Positions 48,717 through 59,481 of a stretch of DNA of 64,000 bases are shown here, piece after piece. Within the stretch, counting starts at the first letter, position 1. Each line of letters starts with the position of its first letter. The position numbers and the translations under genes are program-made. Under the pieces are notes generated by a model that was given only the letters and a program-made list of their open reading frames with translations, did no database searches and was not told the origin of the DNA. The stretch lies in contig CAWCLJ010000003.1 of the NCBI GenBank assembly GCA_963796365.1, positions 654,800 through 718,799 of the forward strand, in the 5' to 3' direction. The stretch comes from an uncultured Chloroflexia bacterium (lineage in GTDB: Bacteria; Chloroflexota; Dehalococcoidia; Dehalococcoidales; RBG-16-60-22).

Positions 48717-48791
48717 TGGAGCGGAAGACGGGATTCGAACCCGCGACTTCCTCCTTGGCAAGGAGGCATTCTACCACTGAACTACTTCCGC
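48717..48791 (-). tRNA. tRNA-Gly (GCC)
   Basis: Reverse complement GCGGAAGTAGTTCAGTGGTAGAATGCCTCCTTGCCAAGGAGGAAGTCGCGGGTTCGAATCCCGTCTTCCGCTCCA. Cloverleaf, anticodon loop TTGCCAA, encoded CCA. Confidence 0.95.
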
Positions 48792-48805
48792 TTGTGTCTT
48801 TAACA

Positions 48806-48882
48806 TGGTGCCGAGGCCCAGAATCGGACTGGGGACACCTTGATTTTCAGTCAAGTGCTCTACCTACTGAGCTACCTCGGCA
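48806..48882 (-). tRNA. tRNA-Phe (GAA)
   Basis: Reverse complement GCCGAGGTAGCTCAGTAGGTAGAGCACTTGACTGAAAATCAAGGTGTCCCCAGTCCGATTCTGGGCCTCGGCACCA. Anticodon loop CTGAAAA. Confidence 0.95.
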
Positions 48883-49846: not shown

Positions 49847-49908
49847 TAAAATATACTTAAACATCTGAATTTGACACCCATTCTCTCGTTGTGTCAAGAT
49901 ATGTCAAC

Positions 49909-51150
49909 ATGACGGAATTGACCGTTAACGAAGCTAAAAAAACTGGAAAAATCTGGGGCATGCACCCCAATGTTTTTTTCCTTGGAATTGTCAGCCTCCT
50001 CACCGATGTTTCCTCGGAGATGATTTTCACCCTCGTTCCGTTGGTGGTCGTCAATATCCTCGGTGGCGGGGCCATTGCCGTCGGTTTTATCGGCGGTATC
50101 ACGGAAAGCTTCGATGCTTTCTTCCGCATCTTCAGCGGCCGCATCAGCGATAAGCTCGGAAAACGCAAACCCCTGGCTGTTTTCGGTTACGGTTTTTCCA
50201 CCATCGTCAAACCCTTCATGCTGCTGACCACCGCCTGGGGCGGCGTGCTGGGCGTCCGTCTTGGCGATAGATTGGGCAAGGGCGTACGCTCCTCCCCGCG
50301 TGACGCGCTCATCGCGGATTCGGTATCGTCGGATAAACGCGGCCGGGCTTTCGGCATCCACCGCGCCCTGGACACCACCGGGGCGTTCCTCGGGCTGGTT
50401 ATCGCCGCTATCATTATCTATGTCGTCCAGGGCGATGCCACCAACCTGACCAAACATGCTTATCAGTGGATGGTCATTGTCGGCGTGATTCCGGCGGTCA
50501 TTTCCGTCATCCTGCTGCTAACCCTCGTGACGGAGAAAGGTCTGGCGCCGGTAAAAGCCAAGACTTCCACCGGGCTCCCGATTGAAACCAAAGCCGCCTT
50601 CAGCCGCCAGTTCAAACTCTTCCTTGTCGTTATGGCTATCTTTACCCTCGGTAACTCCAGCGACTTTTTCGTCATCCTGCGGGCGCAAAACCTTAAAGTG
50701 ACCGTTTTTGAAATTACCCTGATGCTGGTGCTTTTCAACCTCACTTATGTCCTGGTCTCGATACCGGCCGGCACGCTTTCGGATAAAATCGGGCGGCGCA
50801 AGCTACTCGTCGTCGGATGGTTGATTTACGCGCTCTCTTACTTCGGCTTCGCCCTCTCCAACAGCGCCTGGAACATGTGGCTGCTCTTTGCTTTTTACGG
50901 CATCTACTACGGCATTGCCGAAGGGGTAGGCAAAGCTTTTGTGGCGGACCTTGTCCCCGCCGACCGCCGCGGCACCGCTTACGGTTATTATAACGGCCTG
51001 GTAGGTCTCTTTATCCTGCCCGCCAGCGTCCTGGCCGGCCTGCTCTGGGACTACGTTAGCCCGGCTTCTACATTCTATTTCGGGGCAGGCCTTGCCTTCA
51101 TCGCCATGATTGGGATGCTGTTCCTTTTAAAAGAACAAAAACCCGCCTAG
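49909..51150 (+). CDS. MFS transporter
   Basis: 12-TM profile. GRISDKLGKRK loop motif repeated as GTLSDKIGRRK. Confidence 0.85.
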   Translation: MTELTVNEAKKTGKIWGMHPNVFFLGIVSLLTDVSSEMIFTLVPLVVVNILGGGAIAVGFIGGITESFDAFFRIFSGRISDKLGKRKPLAVFGYGFSTIVKPFMLLTTAWGGVLGVRLGDRLGKGVRSSPRDALIADSVSSDKRGRAFGIHRALDTTGAFLGLVIAAIIIYVVQGDATNLTKHAYQWMVIVGVIPAVISVILLLTLVTEKGLAPVKAKTSTGLPIETKAAFSRQFKLFLVVMAIFTLGNSSDFFVILRAQNLKVTVFEITLMLVLFNLTYVLVSIPAGTLSDKIGRRKLLVVGWLIYALSYFGFALSNSAWNMWLLFAFYGIYYGIAEGVGKAFVADLVPADRRGTAYGYYNGLVGLFILPASVLAGLLWDYVSPASTFYFGAGLAFIAMIGMLFLLKEQKPA

Positions 51151-51943: not shown

Positions 51944-52500
51944 CCCCCCAGCTAGGCTGGGGGGAGGAAAGCGAGTTCGCCGAAGGCGAAGCGGTTGATA
52001 GGATAGGAAAATCGTGGTATAAAGGTGGGGTGGCAATAAGAAGGACGAAACACGCGGTTTATGAGCTGAAGTATCACCTAGTCTGGGTACCGAAATACCG
52101 AGCGCATATATTGGGTGGGGAGGTAACCCAGTACTTAAAAGGAATCTTCAGGCAGATAGCCGAGGAGTATGATTTTCAAATAGAGGCGATGGAGGTAATG
52201 GCGGATCATGTACATGTATTTATCGAAGCGCCGCCATCGTACTCGCCATCAGAAATAGTGCAGGTGTTAAAGAGTATATCGGCAAAAGAAGTATTTAAGA
52301 AATACCCAAGGATGAGGAAAATAATGTGGAGTGGGAAGATGTGGAACGAGGGTTATTATGTTAGGAGTGTGGGGGATAAAGTAACGAGTGAAGTGATCAA
52401 GAAATATATCAAATATCAGAAATATGAAGATAAAGACAGTCAGTTAAGGATGTTCGAAAAGGGGTAGGGAAGGGAGAAGCCCCCCAGCTCTGCTGGGGGG
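51944..52500 (+). mobile_element. IS200-type insertion sequence (tnpA only, no tnpB)
   Basis: The Y1 transposase gene is flanked by near-identical perfect hairpins: CCCCCCAGC-TAG-GCTGGGGGG (51944-51964) and CCCCCCAGC-TCT-GCTGGGGGG (52480-52500). Confidence 0.8.
52030..52467 (+). CDS. tnpA: IS200/IS605-family Y1 (HUH) transposase
   Basis: YELKYHLVWVPKYR, HUH motif DHVHVFIEAPP, catalytic Tyr region YIKYQ. 145 aa. Confidence 0.92.
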   Translation: MAIRRTKHAVYELKYHLVWVPKYRAHILGGEVTQYLKGIFRQIAEEYDFQIEAMEVMADHVHVFIEAPPSYSPSEIVQVLKSISAKEVFKKYPRMRKIMWSGKMWNEGYYVRSVGDKVTSEVIKKYIKYQKYEDKDSQLRMFEKG

Positions 52501-53036: not shown

Positions 53037-53108
53037 AAAATGGGTGGGGAAACTGTAAACTGTGAACCGTAAACTGTAGACTGTTACCTGTAAACTAAAT
53101 ACTGTAAG

Positions 53109-53939
53109 TTATTCCATCACCGTATTATCTATCAATCTCGTTTTGCCGAAATTGACCGCCATAGAAATCAAAACCGGTCTTTCTATCCGGCTGATTTCCT
53201 TAAGCGTCTCATTATCGGCCAGGCTGATATAATCGATGACCCCTATGGGCTGTGAGTTGATGATGGCGGTCATCGCCTGCTTGATTTTGCCCGCATCGCG
53301 CTCGCCGCCGCGGTACATTTCCCGCGCTTTCTGGAGGGACTTATAAAGTACCGGGGCATTCCGGCGCATTTCCGGCGTCAGGTAGGTGTTCCGGGAGCTC
53401 ATCGCCAGCCCGTCCGGCTCGCGAATTGTCTTGCAAACGACGATTTCCAGCGGCATGTCCAGGTCCTTTACCATCTTCTTGATAACTGCTGCCTGCTGCG
53501 CGTCTTTCTGCCCGAAGTAGGCTTTGTCTGGCTGAATGATGTTGAACAGCTTATTGACAACTGTTGTCACGCCTTTAAAATGTCCGGGGCGTACCGCGCC
53601 TTCCAGCATGTCGGTGATGTCTTTAACTTCGACCCAGGTATCGTAGCCGTCCGGGTACATCTCTTTATCCGGAGGGATGAAAACGATGTCCGTATGCGGC
53701 TTTAGCATCGCCAGGTCGCGGTCGATATCGCGGGGATAGGTTTTAAAGTCCTCTTTGGGGCCGAACTGCGTGGGGTTAACGAAAATACTCACGGCGGAGA
53801 TATCGTTTTCCGCCTTGGCCTGTTTGACCAGCGAAATATGGCCTTCATGGAGATAGCCCATGGTTGGCACAAATCCCACCGTGCCCTTCAGAGAAGCTCT
53901 CAATTCCCTGACCCCCGCGATGGTTTCAATTACTTTCAT
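53109..53939 (-). CDS. panC: Pantoate--beta-alanine ligase
   Basis: VGFVPTMGYLHEGHISL and GQKDAQQ motifs. Start set to MKVIETI (53939), 4 nt after the upstream stop. Confidence 0.93.
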   Translation of the reverse strand: MKVIETIAGVRELRASLKGTVGFVPTMGYLHEGHISLVKQAKAENDISAVSIFVNPTQFGPKEDFKTYPRDIDRDLAMLKPHTDIVFIPPDKEMYPDGYDTWVEVKDITDMLEGAVRPGHFKGVTTVVNKLFNIIQPDKAYFGQKDAQQAAVIKKMVKDLDMPLEIVVCKTIREPDGLAMSSRNTYLTPEMRRNAPVLYKSLQKAREMYRGGERDAGKIKQAMTAIINSQPIGVIDYISLADNETLKEISRIERPVLISMAVNFGKTRLIDNTVME

Positions 53940-53943
53940 GGGT

Positions 53944-55323
53944 TTATTTCTGGACGTCCCATTTCTTGAGATAAGCGGTCTGCCCGAGGGTTGAACCGCG
54001 CTGGATTTCTTCGCGGACGCGGTCTTCTCTTTCATGGACGTCGATGGCGCGGTTGGCCATTTCCATGGCGTGGTCTTTCGGCACCACCATCACGCCGCTT
54101 TCATCGCCGATAATCCAGTCCCCGGGTTCCACTTTCCGGTTGCAGACCTCGATGGGCGCGTTGATTTCCCCAAAGCCCTTCGGTTCACCGGCCGTCGGCG
54201 TAAAATGCCTGGCGAAAAGCGGGAATTTCATCTTGCGGATATCGTCAATGTCCCTTACCGCGCCGTCGATAACAACGCCGGCAACGCCCTTGCTGCGGCA
54301 GCTGTTAGTCGCCAGTTCGCCCCAGACTGCGATTTCTCCGGCGCATGCATCGATGACGAGGACATCTCCCGGTTTGCACTGGTCGATGGCCTGTACCGGG
54401 GCGCTCCAGTCGCCGTTATAAGTCCTGACCGTCACGGCCGGCCCCGCGAAATGCAATTCTCCCGGTTCGCCGACCCATACCGCTTTCAAGCCTCTAAGCT
54501 CGCCGGTCTTGTGCATCGCGTCACTGATGTTGGCGGTGCTGACTTTCATAAATGCTTCTACCAGGTGTGCCTGGTCGTATTTCATGAACTCTTTGGTGGC
54601 GATGGATTTGCCGGTCTTTAACGCCTGTGCGATTTTACGGGCGGACTCTTCCGGGCTCTTTGCTTTGTATAAAGACCCGCCGACAATGATAATATCCGCT
54701 CCGGCTTCATAAGCCTGCGGCGCCGTGTCGCTGTTGATGCCGCCGGCGGCGGAAATCATCGCCTTTTTCACCGTCATGGTGACCTGTTTCAGGATATCGA
54801 TGGGTTTGATGCCCATGACCTGCTGGTCCAGCCCCACGTGGATGTTAATGATGTCCACGCCCATCTTTTCCAGTTCCGCCGCGCGCTTGGCCGGGTCGGC
54901 GCAGGAAATCAGGTCGGCGCCTACCTGGACGCCGTAATTCTTGGCGGCTAACACCGCCTCGCTGATACATGTATCCGGGGAACAGCCTAGGATAAATACC
55001 ACGTTGGCGCCGGCTTTGGCTGCCATTTCGATCTCGGTCGCGCCGGCATCCATCGTTTTCATGTCCGCTACGATGGTATGGCCGGGGAATTTTTTATGGA
55101 GTTCGCGGATGGCATTCATGCCTTCCGACTTAATCAGAGGAGTGCCTGCTTCAATCCATGCTTTAGATTTATCGCCGTTGGTTTCAGTGAGAATGCCTTT
55201 GACTGCTTCTTCAGCTATTTTAATGGCCCGGGGTAGGTCGAGCAAGTCCAGGGCGACCTGCATCGGGGGGATTTCCGATTTTACAGGCGCTGTGCTTTTC
55301 TTGTTTTTTGTTGTCGTGGTCAT
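53944..55323 (-). CDS. Fusion protein: 3-hexulose-6-phosphate synthase-like (OMPDC-suprafamily) domain + RraA/HMG-CHA-aldolase-like domain
   Basis: N-terminal half: MQVALDLLDL...IEAGTPLIK...ADMKTMDAG...INIHVGLDQQ. C-terminal half: GDVLVIDA...AVWGELATNSCRSKGVAGVVIDGAVRD. Start set to MTTTTKNKK (GGGGTGG SD). Confidence 0.85.
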   Translation of the reverse strand: MTTTTKNKKSTAPVKSEIPPMQVALDLLDLPRAIKIAEEAVKGILTETNGDKSKAWIEAGTPLIKSEGMNAIRELHKKFPGHTIVADMKTMDAGATEIEMAAKAGANVVFILGCSPDTCISEAVLAAKNYGVQVGADLISCADPAKRAAELEKMGVDIINIHVGLDQQVMGIKPIDILKQVTMTVKKAMISAAGGINSDTAPQAYEAGADIIIVGGSLYKAKSPEESARKIAQALKTGKSIATKEFMKYDQAHLVEAFMKVSTANISDAMHKTGELRGLKAVWVGEPGELHFAGPAVTVRTYNGDWSAPVQAIDQCKPGDVLVIDACAGEIAVWGELATNSCRSKGVAGVVIDGAVRDIDDIRKMKFPLFARHFTPTAGEPKGFGEINAPIEVCNRKVEPGDWIIGDESGVMVVPKDHAMEMANRAIDVHEREDRVREEIQRGSTLGQTAYLKKWDVQK

Positions 55324-55342
55324 AAAACCACCCCCTGTGTTC

Positions 55343-55717
55343 TTATCTGCCGAATACTTTTTCGTCCAATTTGGTGACGATTTCATTGTTCTGGTTGACG
55401 TGTACTACTCTGGGATGGTAGTTCGGAAGTTCTTCTTCCTTCACGTCGGTATAAGTGATGATGATAACGATATCGCCTTTCACGGCCAGGCGGGCGGCGG
55501 CGCCGTTCAGGCAGATTTCGCCTTTGCCTTCTTCCCCTTCGATAGCGTAAGTGGTGAAGCGCGCCCCGTTATTAACATTCAGCACGTGCACCTGCTCGTA
55601 AGGAACGATATTGGCTGCCCTCAAGAGCTTCTTATCGATGGTGATGCTGCCCTCGTAGTTGATGTTGGCATCGGTGACATGGGCCCGGTGGATTTTGCTC
55701 TTTAACATCATTCTCAT
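55343..55717 (-). CDS. panD: Aspartate 1-decarboxylase (pyruvoyl-dependent)
   Basis: [25 protein letters not shown], including the G-S self-cleavage site. Confidence 0.95.
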
Positions 55718-55733
55718 TGGCTTCTCCCTGAAT

Positions 55734-56597
55734 TTATTTTACTTTTAATAAAGATTCCAGTTCCCTGGCTTGCGGTTCATCGATAGATTTTTTTGCGGAA
55801 GCGATGGGAATTGTTTGCATCCCCAGCGCCTTATAAGCGGTAAGTAATTCCGGAGCTTTCCGGCTTATGGTGTTAAGGTGCTTGAGGATGGTGCCGGCAT
55901 CGCCGCGGGCAATGGGCCCAGTCAGGCAGTTGGGAAGACCGATGGTTTCGATGTTATGGACGGTGCCGCGGATTAATGGCAGGAGTGCTTTGGTTGCTTT
56001 GTCAGGCGGGATGGAGAAGGTTTCCCAGAGGTCTGCGGCCATTTTTACCAGCGTTACCAGGTAGTTACTGACGAATACGGCGGCTGCATGGTAGGCTGCT
56101 TTATCTTCCGCCTCCAGAATAATCCAGCTTCCTCCCAGGTCTTCCGCCATTTTTTTGAGCGTGGTGAGCAGCGGCTCTTCGGACTCGATGGCGAAAGTAG
56201 AGCCGGGCATATTTTCCATTGCTTCTTTAGCTCCGGCGAACGTTTGAAGCGGGTGGAAGGCAGCCACTTTAGCTCCGGCTTTTCGGGCCGGTTCAAGTAC
56301 ATCGGTAGAATCGGCGCCGCTGCAATGAACCGCTGCCTGGCCCTGCCGCCATTTAAGGCTTTCCGCTATTAACTGGATGACGCTGTCCGGAGTAGTAATG
56401 AAAACCGTATTGGCTGTACTTACAGTTTGTTCCGGCATATCCGCGACATGGCAGCCGATTATTTGTACCGCCAGGTTATTGGCGGCTGCCGTGTTCTGGT
56501 CGTAAACGCTTACGACTTTATACCCCCTGCGGCTTAAAAGCACCGCCAGGGCGGTCCCCACTTTGCCGGCTCCGATAAATCCTATTGTCTCGGGCAT
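55734..56597 (-). CDS. Rossmann + DUF2520-type oxidoreductase, candidate ketopantoate reductase (PanG-like)
   Basis: [14 protein letters not shown] dinucleotide fold. C-terminal ...[14 protein letters not shown]...GPIARGD pattern. First gene of the pan operon. Start ATG 56597 (AGGTGA SD). Confidence 0.7.
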
Positions 56598-56608
56598 TTT
56601 GCTCACCT

Positions 56609-56642
56609 AAACAAAAACCCTCTCGTTTTTAACCGAGAGGGC
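56609..56642 (-). terminator. Intrinsic terminator inside the pan-operon 5' leader (attenuator / expression platform)
   Basis: The minus strand reads CCCTCTCG GTTAAAAA CGAGAGGG TTTTTG. It ends about 12 nt before the SD. Confidence 0.7.
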
Positions 56643-56666
56643 ATTTTATTAGCCTATTTCTGCCGT

Positions 56667-56745
56667 CTCGGTCGTGTTCGATCCAAGCGACTGTCTTTTT
56701 TGTTAAGGTTTTTTCTTCTGACTCACCGCCGTAAGGTCGATGGTC
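56667..56745 (-). promoter_or_regulatory. Leader RNA with two hairpins; the first is a 10-bp stem with two opposed bulged A residues (pan-motif-like)
   Basis: RNA 5'-GAC-CAUCG-A-CC UUAC GG-CGGUG-A-GUC (56745..56720). Second hairpin CUUGG-A-UCG AACA CGA-CCGAG (56687..56667). Confidence 0.55.
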
Positions 56746-56751
56746 AATTTA

Positions 56752-56780
56752 ATTCTAGTACTACTGCATACAAATGTCAA
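56752..56780 (-). promoter_or_regulatory. Sigma70-like promoter of the pan operon
   Basis: TTGACA, 17 nt spacer, TAGAAT on the minus strand. The predicted TSS coincides with the first leader hairpin. Confidence 0.65.
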
Positions 56781-56812
56781 TCGTCCATTTGAGCCTGCAA
56801 AAACGTCACAAA

Positions 56813-56841
56813 TTGTCTAAAATGTATCATCGTGCTATAAT
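56813..56841 (+). promoter_or_regulatory. Sigma70-like promoter of hisA (divergent from the pan promoter)
   Basis: TTGTCT, 17 nt spacer, TATAAT. Confidence 0.55.
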
Positions 56842-56872
56842 ATTTTATATTTTTCAGAAAAAGAGGCCGGCT

Positions 56873-57592
56873 ATAGAAATCATACCCTCTATCGACCTGC
56901 GCAATGGTAAATGCGTCCGCCTTTATAAAGGTGATTATCACCGGGAAACCGTTTTTTCCGATGACCCTCTTGATGTGGCGCTAAAGTGGCAGGCGATGGG
57001 CGCCCCGCGTTTGCACATCGTCGACCTTGACGGCGCCGCCACCGGAGAGTTATCCAATCTCGAGATAATCCACAACATTACCGGCGCGATGCTGATACCC
57101 GTCCAGCTCGGCGGGGGTATACGTCATATCGAAACGATTGAAGGCCTTCTCAAAGCCGGCATCGACCGCGTTATCCTGGGTACCGCGGCCGTTGAATCCC
57201 CGAACCTTATCGCCGAAGCCTGCAGCCGCTACCGGGAGTCTGTCATCGTCGGTATCGATGCCCGCGAAGGGCGGGTAGCTACCCGCGGCTGGGTCAAGGA
57301 AACGGAACTTACCGCCGTTGACTTCGCCAGGTCAATGGTTGAAATAGGCGTGAGGCGTTTCATTTACACGGATATCGAAAGGGACGGCACACTGACGGAG
57401 CCTAATTTCAACTCTATCGGGGAAATGGTCACTTCCCTCGGCTGTCCGGTTATCGCCGCCGGCGGCATTGCCTCGCTGGAACATTTGAAAAAACTGAAAG
57501 AGCTTGGAGTGGAGGGCGCGATTATCGGCAAAGCGTTGTATACCGGAGATATCAATCTAAAACAATCTCTCGAAGAGATAAACCCGATTTAG
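56873..57592 (+). CDS. hisA: ProFAR isomerase HisA, isolated from other his genes
   Basis: IIPSIDLRNGKCVRL...GGGIR...AAGGIASLEHL motifs. The ORF track starts at ATG 56774, but the SD AAGAGG (56861-56866) points to the in-frame ATA at 56873. Start is uncertain. Confidence 0.85.
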   Translation: MEIIPSIDLRNGKCVRLYKGDYHRETVFSDDPLDVALKWQAMGAPRLHIVDLDGAATGELSNLEIIHNITGAMLIPVQLGGGIRHIETIEGLLKAGIDRVILGTAAVESPNLIAEACSRYRESVIVGIDAREGRVATRGWVKETELTAVDFARSMVEIGVRRFIYTDIERDGTLTEPNFNSIGEMVTSLGCPVIAAGGIASLEHLKKLKELGVEGAIIGKALYTGDINLKQSLEEINPI

Positions 57593-57597
57593 TTACT

Positions 57598-58497
57598 TCA
57601 GGCTGCCGCTTGCGCGGCTTCTTCCGCTTTATCGACTTCAACGGCCTTGTTCATCGCTGCAATCGCTACTTCCAATTGTTTGTCATCCGGTTCGGCGGTG
57701 GTCATCGATTGCAGCAGCAATCCGGGCGCCAGGATAATTTTCATCAGCCGGTTGTTGGTATGTCTGGCGCCGAAGTAAATTAATTCATACCCCAGTCCCA
57801 TGATAACCGGCAGCAGCACGATACGCGTCAGCACCATTATCCATAGAGTTTGCCTGCCGGTAAAAGTAAATACGATGATGGCAATTACCAATACAAAGAA
57901 GAGGAAACTCGTGCCGCACCTTACATGGGCGCGGCTGTATTTTTTCAGGTTTTCTACCTCCATCGGTCCGCCGGCTTCATAAGCGTTGACCGCCTTATGC
58001 TCAGCGCCGTGATAAGTGAAAACCCTTTTCACGTCAGCCATCATGCCGATGATTTTCAGATACCCGATAAAAATAGCTATCCTGATAACGCCCTCGATAA
58101 CCGTAAATGTAAGGGTGTTGGGCAGATAGCTGTTGACCAGCTTTGTCAAAAAGAGCGGGGCGATAAAAAACAGTCCCACCGCCATCACCACCGAGAGTAA
58201 AATCATGCCCCAGATGGCTTTGGTGGGGATTTTTTCGTCTTCTTCTTCCATCGCGACATTGGCGGAGAACATTAAAGTTTGTATACCAAGCACCATCGCC
58301 TCGATGAGGACAACCACGCCGCGTACCAGCGGGGTGCGTCTGGCCCAGCTGGTCTGTGCCGAAGCGGCAGGCTTTACATCTACCGCGATATCTCCCTGGG
58401 GACGGCGGACCGCTGTAACCACCGAACTCCGCCCGCGTATCATCACGCCTTCGATGACCGCCTGGCCGCCATAATTATATTTCTTTTTGTCCGGCAT
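57598..58497 (-). CDS. DUF1385 family membrane protein
   Basis: YGGQAVIEGVMIRG...TYHGAEHKAVNAYE...RCGTSF motifs. Start set to MPDKKKY. Confidence 0.85.
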   Translation of the reverse strand: MPDKKKYNYGGQAVIEGVMIRGRSSVVTAVRRPQGDIAVDVKPAASAQTSWARRTPLVRGVVVLIEAMVLGIQTLMFSANVAMEEEDEKIPTKAIWGMILLSVVMAVGLFFIAPLFLTKLVNSYLPNTLTFTVIEGVIRIAIFIGYLKIIGMMADVKRVFTYHGAEHKAVNAYEAGGPMEVENLKKYSRAHVRCGTSFLFFVLVIAIIVFTFTGRQTLWIMVLTRIVLLPVIMGLGYELIYFGARHTNNRLMKIILAPGLLLQSMTTAEPDDKQLEVAIAAMNKAVEVDKAEEAAQAAA

Positions 58498-58578
58498 GTT
58501 TTTATTACCTGTTATGATTTTACGCAATGTTGACTAATTTCGCAAAATGGAGAGAGGAACCGCGAAAACTGTATCTAA

Positions 58579-58613
58579 ACAAAAAGGAGCTCCGATGTTT
58601 ACCGGGGCTCCTT
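58579..58613 (-). terminator. Intrinsic terminator after rpmE
   Basis: AAGGAGC(CCCG)...(CGGA)GCTCCTT hairpin followed by TTTTT on the minus strand. Confidence 0.7.
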
Positions 58614-58635
58614 AGCTTCTGGAATAACTTCAGAT

Positions 58636-58842
58636 TTACTCTTTAATGTTATAGCGCTTCTTGAAGCGTTCAACACGTCCCGCCGTGTCCATCATGCGCC
58701 GTTCGCCGGTGAAGAAAGGATGGCAATTACTGCAAACTTCTACCCGTAGTTCTTTTTTCGTAGAGCCGGTGGTGAACTTGTTACCGCAGGCGCATATTAC
58801 CACTGCGTCGTTATAGTATTTGGGATGAATTTTCTCTTTCAT
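58636..58842 (-). CDS. rpmE: 50S ribosomal protein L31 (zinc-binding type)
   Basis: [10 protein letters not shown]...CACGNKF...[10 protein letters not shown]. Confidence 0.95.
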
Positions 58843-58847
58843 AGCTT

Positions 58848-59102
58848 TCAGCTGTTATAAACGCTGACCTTTCTCCTGTCGTTGCTGGTTGGTTCGTATT
58901 TGACTACGCCTTCGATCTTGGAGAAAATAGTGTAGTCTTTACCGACGCCGACATTGGTGCCTGGTATAATATGTGTGCCATGCTGGCGTACCAGGATGGT
59001 GCCGGCCTGAACGGTTTGTCCGTCAAATATCTTGATGCCGAGCCGTTGCGACTGACTGTCCCGGCCGTTACGACTCTGGGCAGCTCCTTTTTTATGCGCC
59101 AT
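58848..59102 (-). CDS. rpmA: 50S ribosomal protein L27
   Basis: [24 protein letters not shown]. No N-terminal propeptide. Confidence 0.96.
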
Positions 59103-59481
59103 CTTCTGCTTTCTCCTCTGTCTTCTTGCGCCGCGTCCGCTTTACCGGCTTAGCATACTCTGCCCCGGCAGGTAGGATTTTATCAATGCTAAGACTGGTA
59201 AATTGCTGGCGGTGCCCGTTCTTGCGGCGTTCGCGAACTTTTGCTTTAAACTTAAAGACGATGATTTTCTTGTCTTTGCCGTTCTTTTTAACCGTTGCCA
59301 TCACTTTTGCGCCTTCGACTAAAGGCTTGCCGACAGTGATATTATCGCCATCGGCCAGGAAAAGGACTTTATCCAGTTGTACGGAGCCGCCCTCTTCCGC
59401 CTCCAGTTTTTCGACCTTGATTGTCTGGCCTTCGGTTACTTTGTATTGCTTTCCACCTGTTTCGATTATTGCGTAAGTCAT
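59092..59481 (-). CDS. rplU: 50S ribosomal protein L21 (with basic C-terminal extension)
   Basis: [26 protein letters not shown]. Confidence 0.95.

What the first reader, a model, noticed from the sequence alone, without database searches (positions are those of the whole stretch)
53109..56597. Pantothenate operon without panB: an HPS::RraA-aldolase fusion sits in the PanB slot (candidate folate-independent ketopantoate synthase)
Seen in sequence:
- Four minus-strand genes are separated by only 16, 19 and 4 nt and lie behind one promoter and leader.
- The order is DUF2520/PanG-like reductase, panD, a 459-aa fusion, panC.
- The fusion joins a 3-hexulose-6-phosphate-synthase-like barrel (MQVALD, IEAGTPLIK, ADMKTMDAG) to an RraA/HMG-CHA-aldolase-like domain (GDVLVIDA...GELATNSCRSKGVAGVVIDGAVRD).

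Established knowledge:
- Pantothenate synthesis needs ketopantoate hydroxymethyltransferase (PanB, methylene-THF dependent), a ketopantoate reductase (PanE, IlvC or PanG), PanD and PanC.
- HPS reversibly interconverts hexulose-6-P and ribulose-5-P plus formaldehyde.
- The RraA fold includes class II metal-dependent 2-oxoacid aldolases.

Inference:
- The only pathway step missing from the operon is C1 addition to 2-oxoisovalerate.
- The fusion could release formaldehyde from hexulose-6-P in one domain and condense it with 2-oxoisovalerate in the other, giving ketopantoate without folate.
- I know of no description of such a route.
Basis: partly seen in the sequence, partly recalled or inferred. 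Interest (0 to 1): 0.85.

Follow-up and report, generated by a model that had tools for sequence, protein, structure and literature searches.

The report
Sugar-fed enzyme fusion replacing PanB
A two-domain enzyme sits exactly where the vitamin B5 gene panB normally lies, in bacterial and archaeal coenzyme A operons alike, so it probably makes the B5 precursor ketopantoate from sugar-derived formaldehyde without folate; this is untested biochemically.

Summary
The window carries a minus-strand operon: promoter-like site, pan RNA motif, terminator-like hairpin, DUF2520 (PanG-like reductase), panD, a 459-aa HPS::RraA-like fusion, then panC. The gaps are 16, 19 and 4 nt. There is no panB in the 64 kb.

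The fusion belongs to a named but functionally unassigned family, NF005442 ("HPS/ribonuclease regulator"; HPS-MenG of M. hungatei).

New evidence:
- The closest relatives carry the same pan-motif operon with panB in that slot (about 17 complete loci). One other locus has the fusion there instead, and two carry both.
- Among 84 fusion loci, 20 have pantothenate or CoA genes within 5 kb, and 18 of those lack panB.
- Three archaeal loci hold CoA operons with the fusion beside ketopantoate reductase and no panB (for example CoaBC–PoK–fusion–KPR–PPS–decarboxylase).
- A 6-phospho-3-hexuloisomerase gene directly precedes the fusion in nine loci.
- The closed Atabeyarchaeia-1 genome has no K00606 (panB) hit.
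- The catalytic residues of both domains are invariant.

Most likely the fusion is a folate-independent ketopantoate synthase (confidence about 0.6).

Caveats: no biochemistry exists, panB co-occurs in two relatives, 64 of 84 loci show no pan context, and the window's own genome could not be searched.

The parts
56752..56780 (-). Sigma-70-like promoter, TTGACA-17-TAGAAT
   Evidence: 11 of 12 matches. This is a consensus match only; the number of such sites in the region does not exceed shuffles.
56659..56745 (-). pan RNA motif (RF01749), two tandem hairpins, cis-regulatory leader of pantothenate operons
   Evidence: 41.1 bits against a gathering score of 36.2, full model 1-92. The same motif lies upstream of DUF2520 in panB-type (L084, L091, L098), both-type (L001, L004) and fusion-type (L087) operons.
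56617..56642 (-). Terminator-like hairpin plus T run between the pan motif and the first gene (possible attenuator)
   Evidence: 9-bp stem with 6 GC pairs, tail TTTTGTTT. Sequence read.
55734..56606 (-). DUF2520 / Rossmann-like protein, a PanG-type candidate ketopantoate reductase
   Evidence: PF10728 at 1.9e-37 and PF10727 at 4.2e-14. It is 58-65% identical to the first gene of related pan operons.
55343..55717 (-). panD, aspartate 1-decarboxylase
   Evidence: PF02261 at 5e-51; TIGR00223 at 151.5 bits against a cutoff of 106.
53944..55323 (-). HPS::RraA-like fusion gene (459 aa), in the operon position that panB holds in relatives
   Evidence: NF005442 at 640 bits against a cutoff of 593. Searches show the in-situ swap. 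AF2 model: pLDDT 93.1, pTM 0.83.
54613..55266 (-). HPS domain (about aa 20-237), OMP-decarboxylase-suprafamily barrel
   Evidence: PF00215 at 1.4e-31; TIGR03128 at 201.3 bits against a cutoff of 200. Foldseek TM 0.90-0.93 to HPS structures 3ajx and 3f4w. D26, E58, D87, K89, D92 and H162 are invariant.
53947..54573 (-). RraA-fold class II aldolase-like domain (about aa 251-459)
   Evidence: PF03737 at 1.7e-47. R357-D358 align with the catalytic R123-D124 of HMG/CHA aldolase 3noj, and E336 aligns with D102. TM 0.81-0.86 to 3noj and 3k4i. R357 and D358 are invariant in 44 sequences.
53109..53939 (-). panC, pantoate--beta-alanine ligase (276 aa from ATG 53939)
   Evidence: PF02569 at 1.4e-108; TIGR00018 at 350.9 bits against a cutoff of 212.75.

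Best explanation
The 459-aa protein is a bifunctional, folate-independent ketopantoate synthase that does the job of PanB.

Proposed steps:
- Step 1 (HPS domain; activity shown for a protein of this architecture, direction inferred): D-arabino-3-hexulose-6-phosphate is cleaved to ribulose-5-phosphate plus formaldehyde. The substrate is made from fructose-6-phosphate by 6-phospho-3-hexuloisomerase.
- Step 2 (RraA-fold domain; inferred): a divalent-metal class II aldolase site built around R357, D358 and E336 enolises 3-methyl-2-oxobutanoate (2-oxoisovalerate). It adds the nascent formaldehyde to give 2-dehydropantoate (ketopantoate).
- Step 3 (neighbouring genes; annotation-level): the DUF2520/PanG-type reductase here, or PanE in other lineages, reduces ketopantoate to pantoate. 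PanD supplies beta-alanine and PanC ligates the two. In archaea PoK, PPS and an MfnA-like decarboxylase fill these roles.

Why a fusion: HPS equilibrium lies far towards hexulose-6-P, so free formaldehyde is scarce and toxic. Fusing producer and consumer traps it, as in the known Fae-HPS fusion.

Regulation: in this window the whole operon lies behind a pan RNA motif and a terminator-like hairpin. Formaldehyde release would therefore be tied to pantothenate demand.
For: 1. In-situ displacement.
- The closest PanC-anchored relatives carry pan motif-DUF2520-panD-panB-panC; about 17 of the 80 loci show all four genes, and others are truncated contigs.
- L087 and the window carry pan motif-DUF2520-panD-fusion-panC.
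- The window's PanC, PanD and DUF2520 are as similar to the panB-type operons as to L087.
- The downstream tRNA pair is syntenic.
- Sources.

2. Neighbourhoods in 84 fusion loci.
- 20 loci have a pantothenate or CoA gene within 5 kb, and none lies at 5-10 kb.
- A rough binomial gives 6e-13 at an assumed 3% background, though the loci are not independent.
- 18 of the 20 have no PanB within +-10 kb by phmmer, a PanB profile and tblastn.
- Sources.

3. Two unrelated reductase families flank the fusion: DUF2520 in 10 loci and PanE/ApbA in 7, six of them directly adjacent.

4. Archaeal CoA operons carry the fusion and no panB.
- L031: CoaBC-PoK-fusion-KPR-PPS-MfnA-like decarboxylase.
- L011: PoK-PPS-fusion-KPR-MfnA-like.
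- L009: PPS-fusion-KPR-CoaBC.

5. PHI (TIGR03127, 182.6 bits against a cutoff of 160) lies directly upstream on the same strand in 9 loci. L065 reads PHI-fusion-PanE.

6. Genome-wide check in one closed genome, Atabeyarchaeia-1 (= L011, CP147779.1).
- The published KofamScan table lists PoK, PPS, KPR and MfnA around gene 1062, which is the fusion.
- It contains no K00606 entry for this genome in the stored table, which covers all of Atabeya-1 and only the start of Atabeya-2.
- Sources: PMC11291895 supplement.

7. Both active sites are intact and invariant. Both folds are confirmed.

8. M. hungatei HPS-MenG has measurable but low HPS activity, 0.21 U/mg against 6.05 for Fae-HPS in the same organism. 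That fits a low-flux vitamin route (PMC5241800).
Against: - No biochemical or genetic test of ketopantoate formation exists.
- RraA-fold aldolases are known only with pyruvate or oxaloacetate as the enolisable substrate.
- The domain falls below the cutoffs of the CHA-aldolase equivalog models.
- Two Dehalococcoidia relatives (L001, L004) have an intact panB and the fusion in the same operon. The two are therefore not strictly alternative.
- 64 of 84 loci show no pantothenate context. Thermoplasmata, Methanoregula and most Desulfobacterales loci fall in this group.
- Poribacteria, one of which has fusion-PanE, are reported to have KPHMT homologs (PMC7883664).
- The rest of the window's genome could not be searched for panB.
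Confidence: 0.6

Rival explanations
1. C1-donor helper rather than a PanB replacement. The HPS domain releases formaldehyde from hexulose-6-P. The formaldehyde condenses with tetrahydrofolate or H4MPT, or is used directly, and feeds a conventional PanB encoded elsewhere or in the same operon. The RraA-like domain does something accessory, such as oxaloacetate decarboxylation or regulation.
For: - L001 and L004 carry panB and the fusion together in one pan-motif operon.
- HPS activity has been measured for a protein of this architecture.
- E. coli PanB can use free formaldehyde, poorly (my own knowledge).
Against: - It does not explain why the RraA-type catalytic Arg-Asp pair is invariant across the family.
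- It does not explain why the fusion takes the panB position in the window and in L087.
- Archaeal operons contain every other step but not panB.
- Atabeyarchaeia-1 has no K00606 hit anywhere.
Confidence: 0.15
2. General reverse-RuMP enzyme with built-in formaldehyde scavenging. The fusion makes ribulose-5-P for pentoses from F6P, and the aldolase domain disposes of formaldehyde on pyruvate, giving 4-hydroxy-2-oxobutanoate or a similar product. The link to pantothenate genes is secondary.
For: - PHI-fusion pairs without pan genes occur in most Desulfobacterales loci.
- 64 of 84 loci lack pan context.
- Published readings place the gene in the RuMP/RHP pathway (PMC5241800; PMC11291895).
- Known RraA-fold aldolases use pyruvate.
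Against: - The association with pantoate genes is repeated and architecture-independent across at least four operon types and both domains of life, including exact substitution for panB.
- The window's copy is controlled by the pan RNA motif.
- Organisms such as M. hungatei and Atabeyarchaeia-1 already have a far more active, or separate, Fae-HPS for bulk flux.
Confidence: 0.2
3. The database name is literally correct: an HPS fused to an RraA-type protein inhibitor of RNase E ('ribonuclease regulator').
For: NCBIfam names NF005442 this way, and PF03737 covers the RraA proteins.
Against: - The domain scores far below the RraA equivalog cutoffs: NF006875 at 73 against 136, and TIGR02998 at 34 against 241.
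- It retains the aldolase catalytic R-D pair and a C-terminal extension like 3k4i/3noj.
- The family is abundant in archaea, which lack RNase E (my own knowledge).
Confidence: 0.02

Closest known systems
Ketopantoate hydroxymethyltransferase PanB (EC 2.1.2.11, PF02548)
   Same: - Proposed same product, ketopantoate from 2-oxoisovalerate plus a C1 unit.
- Same operon slot, under the same pan RNA motif.
- Both would be metal-dependent enolate (class II aldolase-type) chemistry.
   Different: - No sequence or fold relation: PanB is a PEP-mutase/ICL-type barrel, the fusion an OMPDC-type barrel plus an RraA fold.
- PanB's C1 donor is 5,10-methylene-tetrahydrofolate. Here it is proposed to be formaldehyde from hexulose-6-P.
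Fae-HPS fusion of methanogens (formaldehyde-activating enzyme fused to HPS, K13812)
   Same: HPS is fused to a partner that consumes formaldehyde. The logic is to capture formaldehyde released by reverse HPS (PMC5241800).
   Different: - The partner domain there is Fae, which condenses formaldehyde with H4MPT. Here it is an RraA-fold aldolase.
- Fae-HPS carries bulk flux (6 U/mg against 0.21 U/mg).
- The two coexist in M. hungatei and Atabeyarchaeia-1.
HPS-MenG (Mhun0647) of Methanospirillum hungatei; NCBIfam NF005442 / PRK07028
   Same: - Same two-domain architecture and family.
- The Methanospirillum stamsii member, L062, is 51% identical to the window protein.
- HPS activity was shown experimentally.
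   Different: - That work assigned it to the reductive hexulose-phosphate pathway and left the second domain's function unknown.
- No link to pantothenate was made.
- Identity of Mhun0647 with this family is inferred from its architecture and genus, not aligned here.
HMG/CHA aldolase (EC 4.1.3.17, PDB 3NOJ) and the uncharacterised PSPTO_3204 (3K4I)
   Same: - RraA fold, TM 0.81-0.86.
- Catalytic Arg-Asp pair, and the acidic residue that holds metal-bound waters, are conserved as R357, D358 and E336.
   Different: - About 25-30% identity.
- Below the equivalog cutoffs.
- Known substrates are pyruvate-derived 4-hydroxy-2-oxoacids, not 3,3-dimethyl-substituted ones.
- Not fused to HPS.
Ketopantoaldolase, EC 4.1.2.12 (2-dehydropantoate = 2-oxoisovalerate + formaldehyde)
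   Same: Exactly the reaction proposed for the RraA-like domain, and folate-independent.
   Different: It is an orphan activity from 1950s E. coli extracts with no gene assigned, and was considered non-physiological there (my own knowledge; not checked with tools).
HPS-PHI fusion (K13831; PDB 9LJ9)
   Same: - The HPS domain matches strongly (E-value 1.2e-53).
- JGI and KofamScan label the present family with this name.
   Different: The second domain there is a SIS-type isomerase, not RraA-like. The K13831 label on this family is a mis-annotation. PHI is a separate upstream gene in 9 loci.

Membership tests
NF005442 / PRK07028 (HPS fused to RraA-like domain) | Full-length match above the curated cutoff | tested here: met
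   640.2 bits against a cutoff of 593, residues 38-479 of the long ORF on model positions 2-429 of 430.
NF005442 / PRK07028 (HPS fused to RraA-like domain) | Two-domain architecture, PF00215 then PF03737 | tested here: met
   All 120 best homologs carry both domains.
3-hexulose-6-phosphate synthase (EC 4.1.2.43) | Match to TIGR03128 RuMP_HxlA at or above the cutoff | tested here: met
   201.3 bits against a cutoff of 200, which is marginal. E-value 1.2e-53 to the HPS part of 9lj9.
3-hexulose-6-phosphate synthase (EC 4.1.2.43) | OMPDC-suprafamily metal and catalytic residues (Asp, Glu, the D-x-K-x-x-D motif, His) | tested here: met
   D26, E58, D87, K89, D92 and H162 are invariant in 12 diverse family members. 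Correspondence to KGPDC E33/D62/K64/D67/H136 is by spacing and by the HMMER alignment range and is an inference.
3-hexulose-6-phosphate synthase (EC 4.1.2.43) | HPS fold | tested here: met
   Foldseek TM (target-normalised) 0.90 to 3ajx and 0.93 to 3f4w, on a model with pLDDT 93.
3-hexulose-6-phosphate synthase (EC 4.1.2.43) | Catalysis of Ru5P + HCHO <-> hexulose-6-P | not testable with these tools
   Shown for M. hungatei HPS-MenG at 0.21 U/mg (PMC5241800), not for this protein.
HMG/CHA aldolase / oxaloacetate decarboxylase (RraA-fold class II aldolase) | Equivalog model score at or above the cutoff (NF006731, TIGR02798) | tested here: not met
   122.4 against 179, and 109.7 against 304.5. 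It is a separate subfamily, not a CHA aldolase ortholog.
HMG/CHA aldolase / oxaloacetate decarboxylase (RraA-fold class II aldolase) | Catalytic Arg and metal-binding Asp (R123, D124 of 3NOJ), and the acidic residue at D102 | tested here: met
   R357-D358 align with R123-D124, and E336 with D102. R357 and D358 are invariant in 44 sequences, including standalone relatives.
HMG/CHA aldolase / oxaloacetate decarboxylase (RraA-fold class II aldolase) | Aldol cleavage or condensation via a 2-oxoacid enolate | not testable with these tools
RraA, protein inhibitor of RNase E | Match to the RraA equivalog models | tested here: not met
   NF006875 at 73.1 against 136; TIGR02998 at 33.7 against 241.
PanB / KPHMT (PF02548) | Sequence or fold similarity to Pantoate_transf | tested here: not met
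   No PF02548 hit on the fusion, and a PanB profile finds nothing in the window. The claim is 'works like', not 'is a member'.
PanB / KPHMT (functional equivalence) | Complementary distribution with panB | tested here: inconclusive
   - At operon level the swap is seen in close relatives.
- 18 of 20 pan-linked loci lack panB.
- One closed genome has no K00606 hit.
- But two operons carry both, and no genome-wide profile across species was possible.
pan RNA motif (RF01749) | Score at or above the gathering threshold, located in the 5' leader of a pantothenate operon | tested here: met
   41.1 bits against 36.2, full-length, between the promoter-like site and the first gene. The family description is in PMC2864571.
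PanG-type ketopantoate reductase (DUF2520) | PF10727 + PF10728 architecture in a pan operon | tested here: met
   It is conserved as the first gene of related pan operons. Reductase activity was not tested; the PanG assignment of DUF2520 comes from my own knowledge.

The most novel reading that the evidence does not exclude
This fusion family is the missing, pterin/folate-independent ketopantoate synthase of many archaea (Asgard, Thermoproteota, Thermoplasmata, class II methanogens) and anaerobic bacteria. It takes the hydroxymethyl carbon of coenzyme A from C-1 of a hexose phosphate, by passing formaldehyde from an HPS site to an RraA-fold aldolase site within one protein. It has repeatedly displaced panB in situ.
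Probability: 0.55. Interest if true: 0.85.

Novelty: new variant of a known kind. Interest (0 to 1): 0.78.

Why it matters
- Ketopantoate formation is the committed step of pantoate, and hence of CoA and acyl-carrier-protein cofactor synthesis. PanB is the only enzyme with an assigned gene for it.
- A sugar-phosphate-driven, folate-independent replacement would close a gap in CoA biosynthesis for panB-less archaea and anaerobes.
- It would give the first physiological substrate for a large, strongly conserved RraA-like subfamily. It would also explain why non-methylotrophs keep a second, slow HPS.
- It would correct widespread mis-annotation as 'HPS-PHI', 'OMP decarboxylase' or 'ribonuclease regulator'. 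That mis-annotation leads metabolic reconstructions to infer formaldehyde assimilation.
- It would supply a natural formaldehyde-channelling C-C bond-forming enzyme of interest for C1 biocatalysis.
- The hypothesis is directly testable with a delta-panB complementation and a simple coupled assay.

Tried and rejected
- Looked for a solved structure of the fusion and found none. The best PDB hit, 9lj9, is an HPS-PHI fusion and not this architecture.
- The first AF2 run used a shallow 34-sequence alignment and gave an unreliable RraA domain (pLDDT 40-65). It was repeated with a more diverse alignment, giving pLDDT 93. A monomer model cannot show an inter-site tunnel, because both parent folds are oligomeric.
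- Tried to identify the window's source genome by exact-protein look-up.
  - The 459-aa fusion is not on record.
  - L21 and PanD are found only on short Logan contigs of run ERR10755942. A >1 Mb contig exists but was not returned.
  - So panB could not be searched in the same genome.
- Ten literature searches found no paper linking HPS/RraA/MenG fusions to ketopantoate. Genschel 2004 is not held, so my recollection that methanogens lack panB stays unverified.
- Considered the 480-aa long ORF starting at ATG 55386. It was rejected because it overlaps panD by 44 nt, homologs begin near 'IPPxQ', and an RBS precedes ATG 55323.
- Considered the 'ribonuclease regulator' name and rejected it (see rivals).
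- BLAST-based neighbour clustering alone under-counted the CoA genes. Targeted phmmer with PoK, PPS, CoaBC and MfnA queries was needed.

Full report
**Observation**

The region holds four co-directional minus-strand genes:
- a DUF2520/Rossmann-like protein (56606 or 56597 to 55734);
- panD (55717-55343);
- a 459-aa ORF from ATG 55323 to the stop at 53944;
- panC from ATG 53939 to 53109.

Pfam and NCBIfam confirm the assignments. They show the middle protein to be PF00215 (OMPDC/HUMPS barrel) followed by PF03737 (RraA-like). It is a full-length member of NF005442/PRK07028, 'bifunctional hexulose-6-phosphate synthase/ribonuclease regulator' (640 bits, cutoff 593). So the fusion itself is a known, named family.

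Upstream lie three leader elements:
- a promoter-like TTGACA-17-TAGAAT, a consensus match only;
- a full-length Rfam pan motif, 41.1 bits against a gathering score of 36.2, at 56745-56659;
- a terminator-like hairpin with a T run at 56642-56617.

The pan motif is the cis-regulatory RNA described upstream of panB, panC and panD operons in Chloroflexi, Firmicutes and delta-proteobacteria (PMC2864571). The 64-kb window contains no panB.

**The two domains**

A 12-sequence alignment spanning 43-81% identity leaves these residues invariant:
- in the HPS half: D26, E58, D87-x-K89-x-x-D92 and H162;
- in the RraA half: R357-D358.

HMMER alignment to PDB chains places R357-D358 on the catalytic Arg123-Asp124 of Pseudomonas HMG/CHA aldolase (3NOJ). 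It places E336 on Asp102.

An AF2 model built on a diverse 44-sequence alignment is confident (pLDDT 93.1, pTM 0.83). Foldseek matches its halves to HPS structures (TM 0.90-0.93) and to 3NOJ/3K4I (TM 0.81-0.86).

The RraA-like half is below the cutoffs of the CHA-aldolase and RraA equivalog models. It is therefore its own subfamily with aldolase-type catalytic residues, not an RNase E regulator. No structure of the fusion exists; the best PDB hit, 9LJ9, is an HPS-PHI fusion.

**Family size and spread**

The best 120 all carry both domains. At 50% clustering only about ten clusters are full-length fusions, so the family is compact and slowly evolving.

Its 80 best loci are all full-length and come from:
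- archaea: Thermoplasmata, Methanoregula, Methanospirillum, Methanothrix, Methanosarcinales, Methanocella, Archaeoglobaceae, Asgard, Nitrososphaerota and Nezhaarchaeales;
- bacteria: Dehalococcoidia, Desulfobacterales, Actinomycetota, Planctomycetota, Omnitrophota and Poribacteria.

The window protein is 80-81% identical to Dehalococcoidia and Desulfobacterales members, and 74% identical to an Asgard one.

**Key test 1: is this really the 'PanB slot'?**

I anchored on PanC in metagenome contigs and annotated the 80 closest loci.
- The standard operon of this clade is DUF2520-panD-panB-panC. About 17 loci show all four genes, and others are truncated. None has a fusion within 6 kb downstream.
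- One locus (L087) has DUF2520-panD-fusion-panC, like the window.
- Two GTDB/NCBI Dehalococcoidia (L001, a closed 2.17-Mb genome, and L004) have DUF2520-panD-panB-panC-fusion.

All three operon types start with the pan motif. The panB-type loci share with the window a tRNA pair downstream of panC. The window's DUF2520, PanD and PanC are as close to panB-type operons (61-80%) as to L087 (65-82%).

This is an in-situ exchange of panB for the fusion within one conserved, identically regulated operon, with a both-genes state also sampled.

**Key test 2: neighbourhoods across the family**

In 84 loci (80 from GTDB, three from protein look-ups, and the window) I called ORFs and searched them with phmmer queries. 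Family identities were verified by Pfam and NCBIfam.

Twenty loci have a pantothenate or CoA gene within 5 kb of the fusion, and none lies at 5-10 kb. Per-gene counts:

| Gene | Loci |
|---|---|
| PanC | 10 |
| DUF2520 | 10 |
| PanE/ApbA | 7 (six directly adjacent, same strand) |
| PanD | 5 |
| PPS | 3 |
| MfnA-like decarboxylase | 3 |
| PoK | 2 |
| CoaBC | 2 |

A PanB profile and tblastn find PanB only in L001 and L004.

The architectures are independent of one another:
- Dehalococcoidia, as above.
- Actinomycetota: DUF2520-UPF0047-fusion with panC adjacent, or panC-panD-UPF0047-fusion.
- Desulfobacterota: PHI-fusion-PanE (L065), or DUF2520/PHI-fusion (L052).
- Poribacteria: fusion-PanE.
- Archaea, most strikingly:
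  - Nezhaarchaeales L031: CoaBC-PoK-fusion-KPR-PPS-MfnA-like decarboxylase, with overlapping genes;
  - Asgard Atabeyarchaeia L011: PoK-PPS-fusion-KPR-MfnA-like;
  - Hecatellales L009: PPS-fusion-KPR-CoaBC.

These archaeal operons encode every step from 2-oxoisovalerate and aspartate to 4'-phosphopantothenate and beyond, except ketopantoate formation.

A bona fide 6-phospho-3-hexuloisomerase gene (TIGR03127, 182.6 bits against a cutoff of 160) directly precedes the fusion in nine loci. That points to fructose-6-P as the ultimate source of hexulose-6-P.

**Key test 3: genome-wide panB**

The window's genome could not be retrieved, and collection scans were exhausted. However, L011 comes from the closed Atabeyarchaeia-1 chromosome (CP147779.1). 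The authors' KofamScan table for that genome is held as a supplement.
- It lists genes 1060-1064 as K06982 (PoK), K09722 (PPS), K13831 + K10218 (the fusion, labelled 'hps-phi'), K00077 (KPR) and K18933 (decarboxylase).
- It runs through gene 2707 and on into the next genome.
- It contains no K00606 and no '3-methyl-2-oxobutanoate hydroxymethyltransferase'.
- The same genome has a separate Fae-HPS and standalone PHI genes.

This is one genome and rests on Kofam thresholds.

**Prior knowledge**

Kono et al. 2017 (PMC5241800) expressed M. hungatei Mhun0647, 'HPS-MenG'. They measured HPS activity of 0.21 U/mg, against 6.05 for Fae-HPS. [quoted passage not shown]

Valentin-Alvarado et al. 2024 read the Atabeyarchaeia gene as RuMP 'HPS-PH'.

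NCBIfam (June 2026) still calls the family an HPS/'ribonuclease regulator'. JGI calls it HPS-PHI, and NCBI often calls it OMP decarboxylase.

Ten full-text searches found no paper connecting this family, or any HPS/RraA protein, with ketopantoate. The library lacks most subscription journals, so prior description cannot be excluded.

From my own knowledge, a folate-independent 'ketopantoaldolase' (EC 4.1.2.12) is an orphan activity, and PanB itself accepts free formaldehyde poorly. The chemistry therefore has precedent, even if the gene assignment does not.

**Mechanism proposed**

| Status | Claim |
|---|---|
| Shown | Architecture, conserved catalytic residues, folds, operon position, regulation by the pan motif, and gene neighbourhoods. 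|
| Shown for an architecture-equivalent protein | HPS activity. |
| Inferred | HPS runs in the cleavage direction, giving hexulose-6-P -> Ru5P + HCHO. |
| Inferred | The RraA-fold site enolises 2-oxoisovalerate on a divalent metal and adds the formaldehyde, giving ketopantoate. DUF2520/PanG or PanE then reduces it. |
| Inferred | Fusion serves to capture scarce, toxic formaldehyde, as in Fae-HPS. |

I put 0.6 on this mechanism. I put about 0.85 on the weaker statement that the family functions in pantoate/CoA precursor synthesis in at least the lineages with linked operons.

**Counter-evidence and rivals**
- panB and the fusion coexist in L001 and L004.
- Three-quarters of loci show no pan context. 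Vitamin genes are often scattered, so this is weak evidence either way.
- Poribacteria are reported to have KPHMT homologs.
- RraA-fold aldolases are only known with pyruvate-type donors.

The rivals are:
- a formaldehyde supplier for a conventional PanB (0.15);
- a general reverse-RuMP enzyme that scavenges formaldehyde onto pyruvate (0.2);
- the literal 'ribonuclease regulator' reading (0.02).

**Verdict**

The family is known, but the proposed role is not described in the literature I could search. I rate it a new variant of a known kind: an HPS fusion that couples formaldehyde release to a consuming partner, here displacing PanB. Interest is 0.78.

Noticed in passing
window 52030-52467 (+), with 49891-51150 (+) and tRNAs at 48720-48881 (-): An IS200/IS605 Y1 transposase (NF033573, 158 bits) and a 419-aa membrane-protein ORF (family not tested) lie between panC and a tRNA pair. 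In panB-type relatives the same tRNA pair lies only 1.4-2.5 kb downstream of panC, so this stretch looks like an insertion into a syntenic locus next to the rearranged operon.
   Followed up: partly
window 53050-53107: A 7-nt tandem repeat (AAACTGT, 8.3 copies, 68% matches) sits immediately after the panC stop codon. Its function is unknown. It replaces any obvious terminator at the operon's end.
   Followed up: no
L014, L019, L022, L024, L026, L032, L037, L045, L053, L058, L061, L068 (gene directly upstream of the fusion; 2.6 kb upstream in L042): A UPF0047/YjbQ-family gene (PF01894) lies on the same strand as the fusion in 13 of 84 loci (Actinomycetota, Planctomycetota, Omnitrophota), directly upstream in 12 of them. 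It often sits between DUF2520 or panD and the fusion. It may be a third component of the same pathway, and its true function is unknown.
   Followed up: partly
L013, L015, L030, L039, L041, L042, L056 (gene overlapping the fusion's 3' end): In Thermoplasmata loci a DUF362 protein with a 4Fe-4S ferredoxin insert is translationally coupled downstream of the fusion, with no pantothenate genes nearby. This is a different, unexplained conserved partnership.
   Followed up: no
L076 (labelled Bacteroidaceae) and L081 (labelled Lachnospiraceae): These gut 'bacterial' bins carry the fusion with the same neighbours (for example an M48 peptidase) as loci labelled Thermoplasmata, Euryarchaeota or Methanomethylophilaceae (L012, L016, L020, L050, L055). 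They are probably mis-binned archaeal contigs.
   Followed up: partly
fusion gene, window 53944-55323, compared with P0119 and L001: The fusion is 74% identical between this Dehalococcoidia-like window and an Asgard archaeon. The flanking PanC, PanD and DUF2520 are only 58-69% identical between Dehalococcoidia relatives. This implies unusually strong constraint, inter-domain transfer, or both.
   Followed up: partly
L011 (Atabeyarchaeia-1 gene 1062) and JGI names: KofamScan and JGI assign this family to K13831 'hps-phi', although the second domain is RraA-like and not a SIS isomerase. Published RuMP/formaldehyde-assimilation inferences for Asgard archaea and others partly rest on this mislabel.
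   Followed up: yes
window 56774-57592 (+) and 57598-59481 (-): hisA lies divergent from the pan operon. Beyond it are a 309-aa membrane-protein ORF (family not tested) and three small ORFs that I read as ribosomal protein genes L31, L27 and L21; only L21 was confirmed, by PF00829. This is ordinary housekeeping context with no sign of a mobile island around the operon other than the IS200.
   Followed up: no
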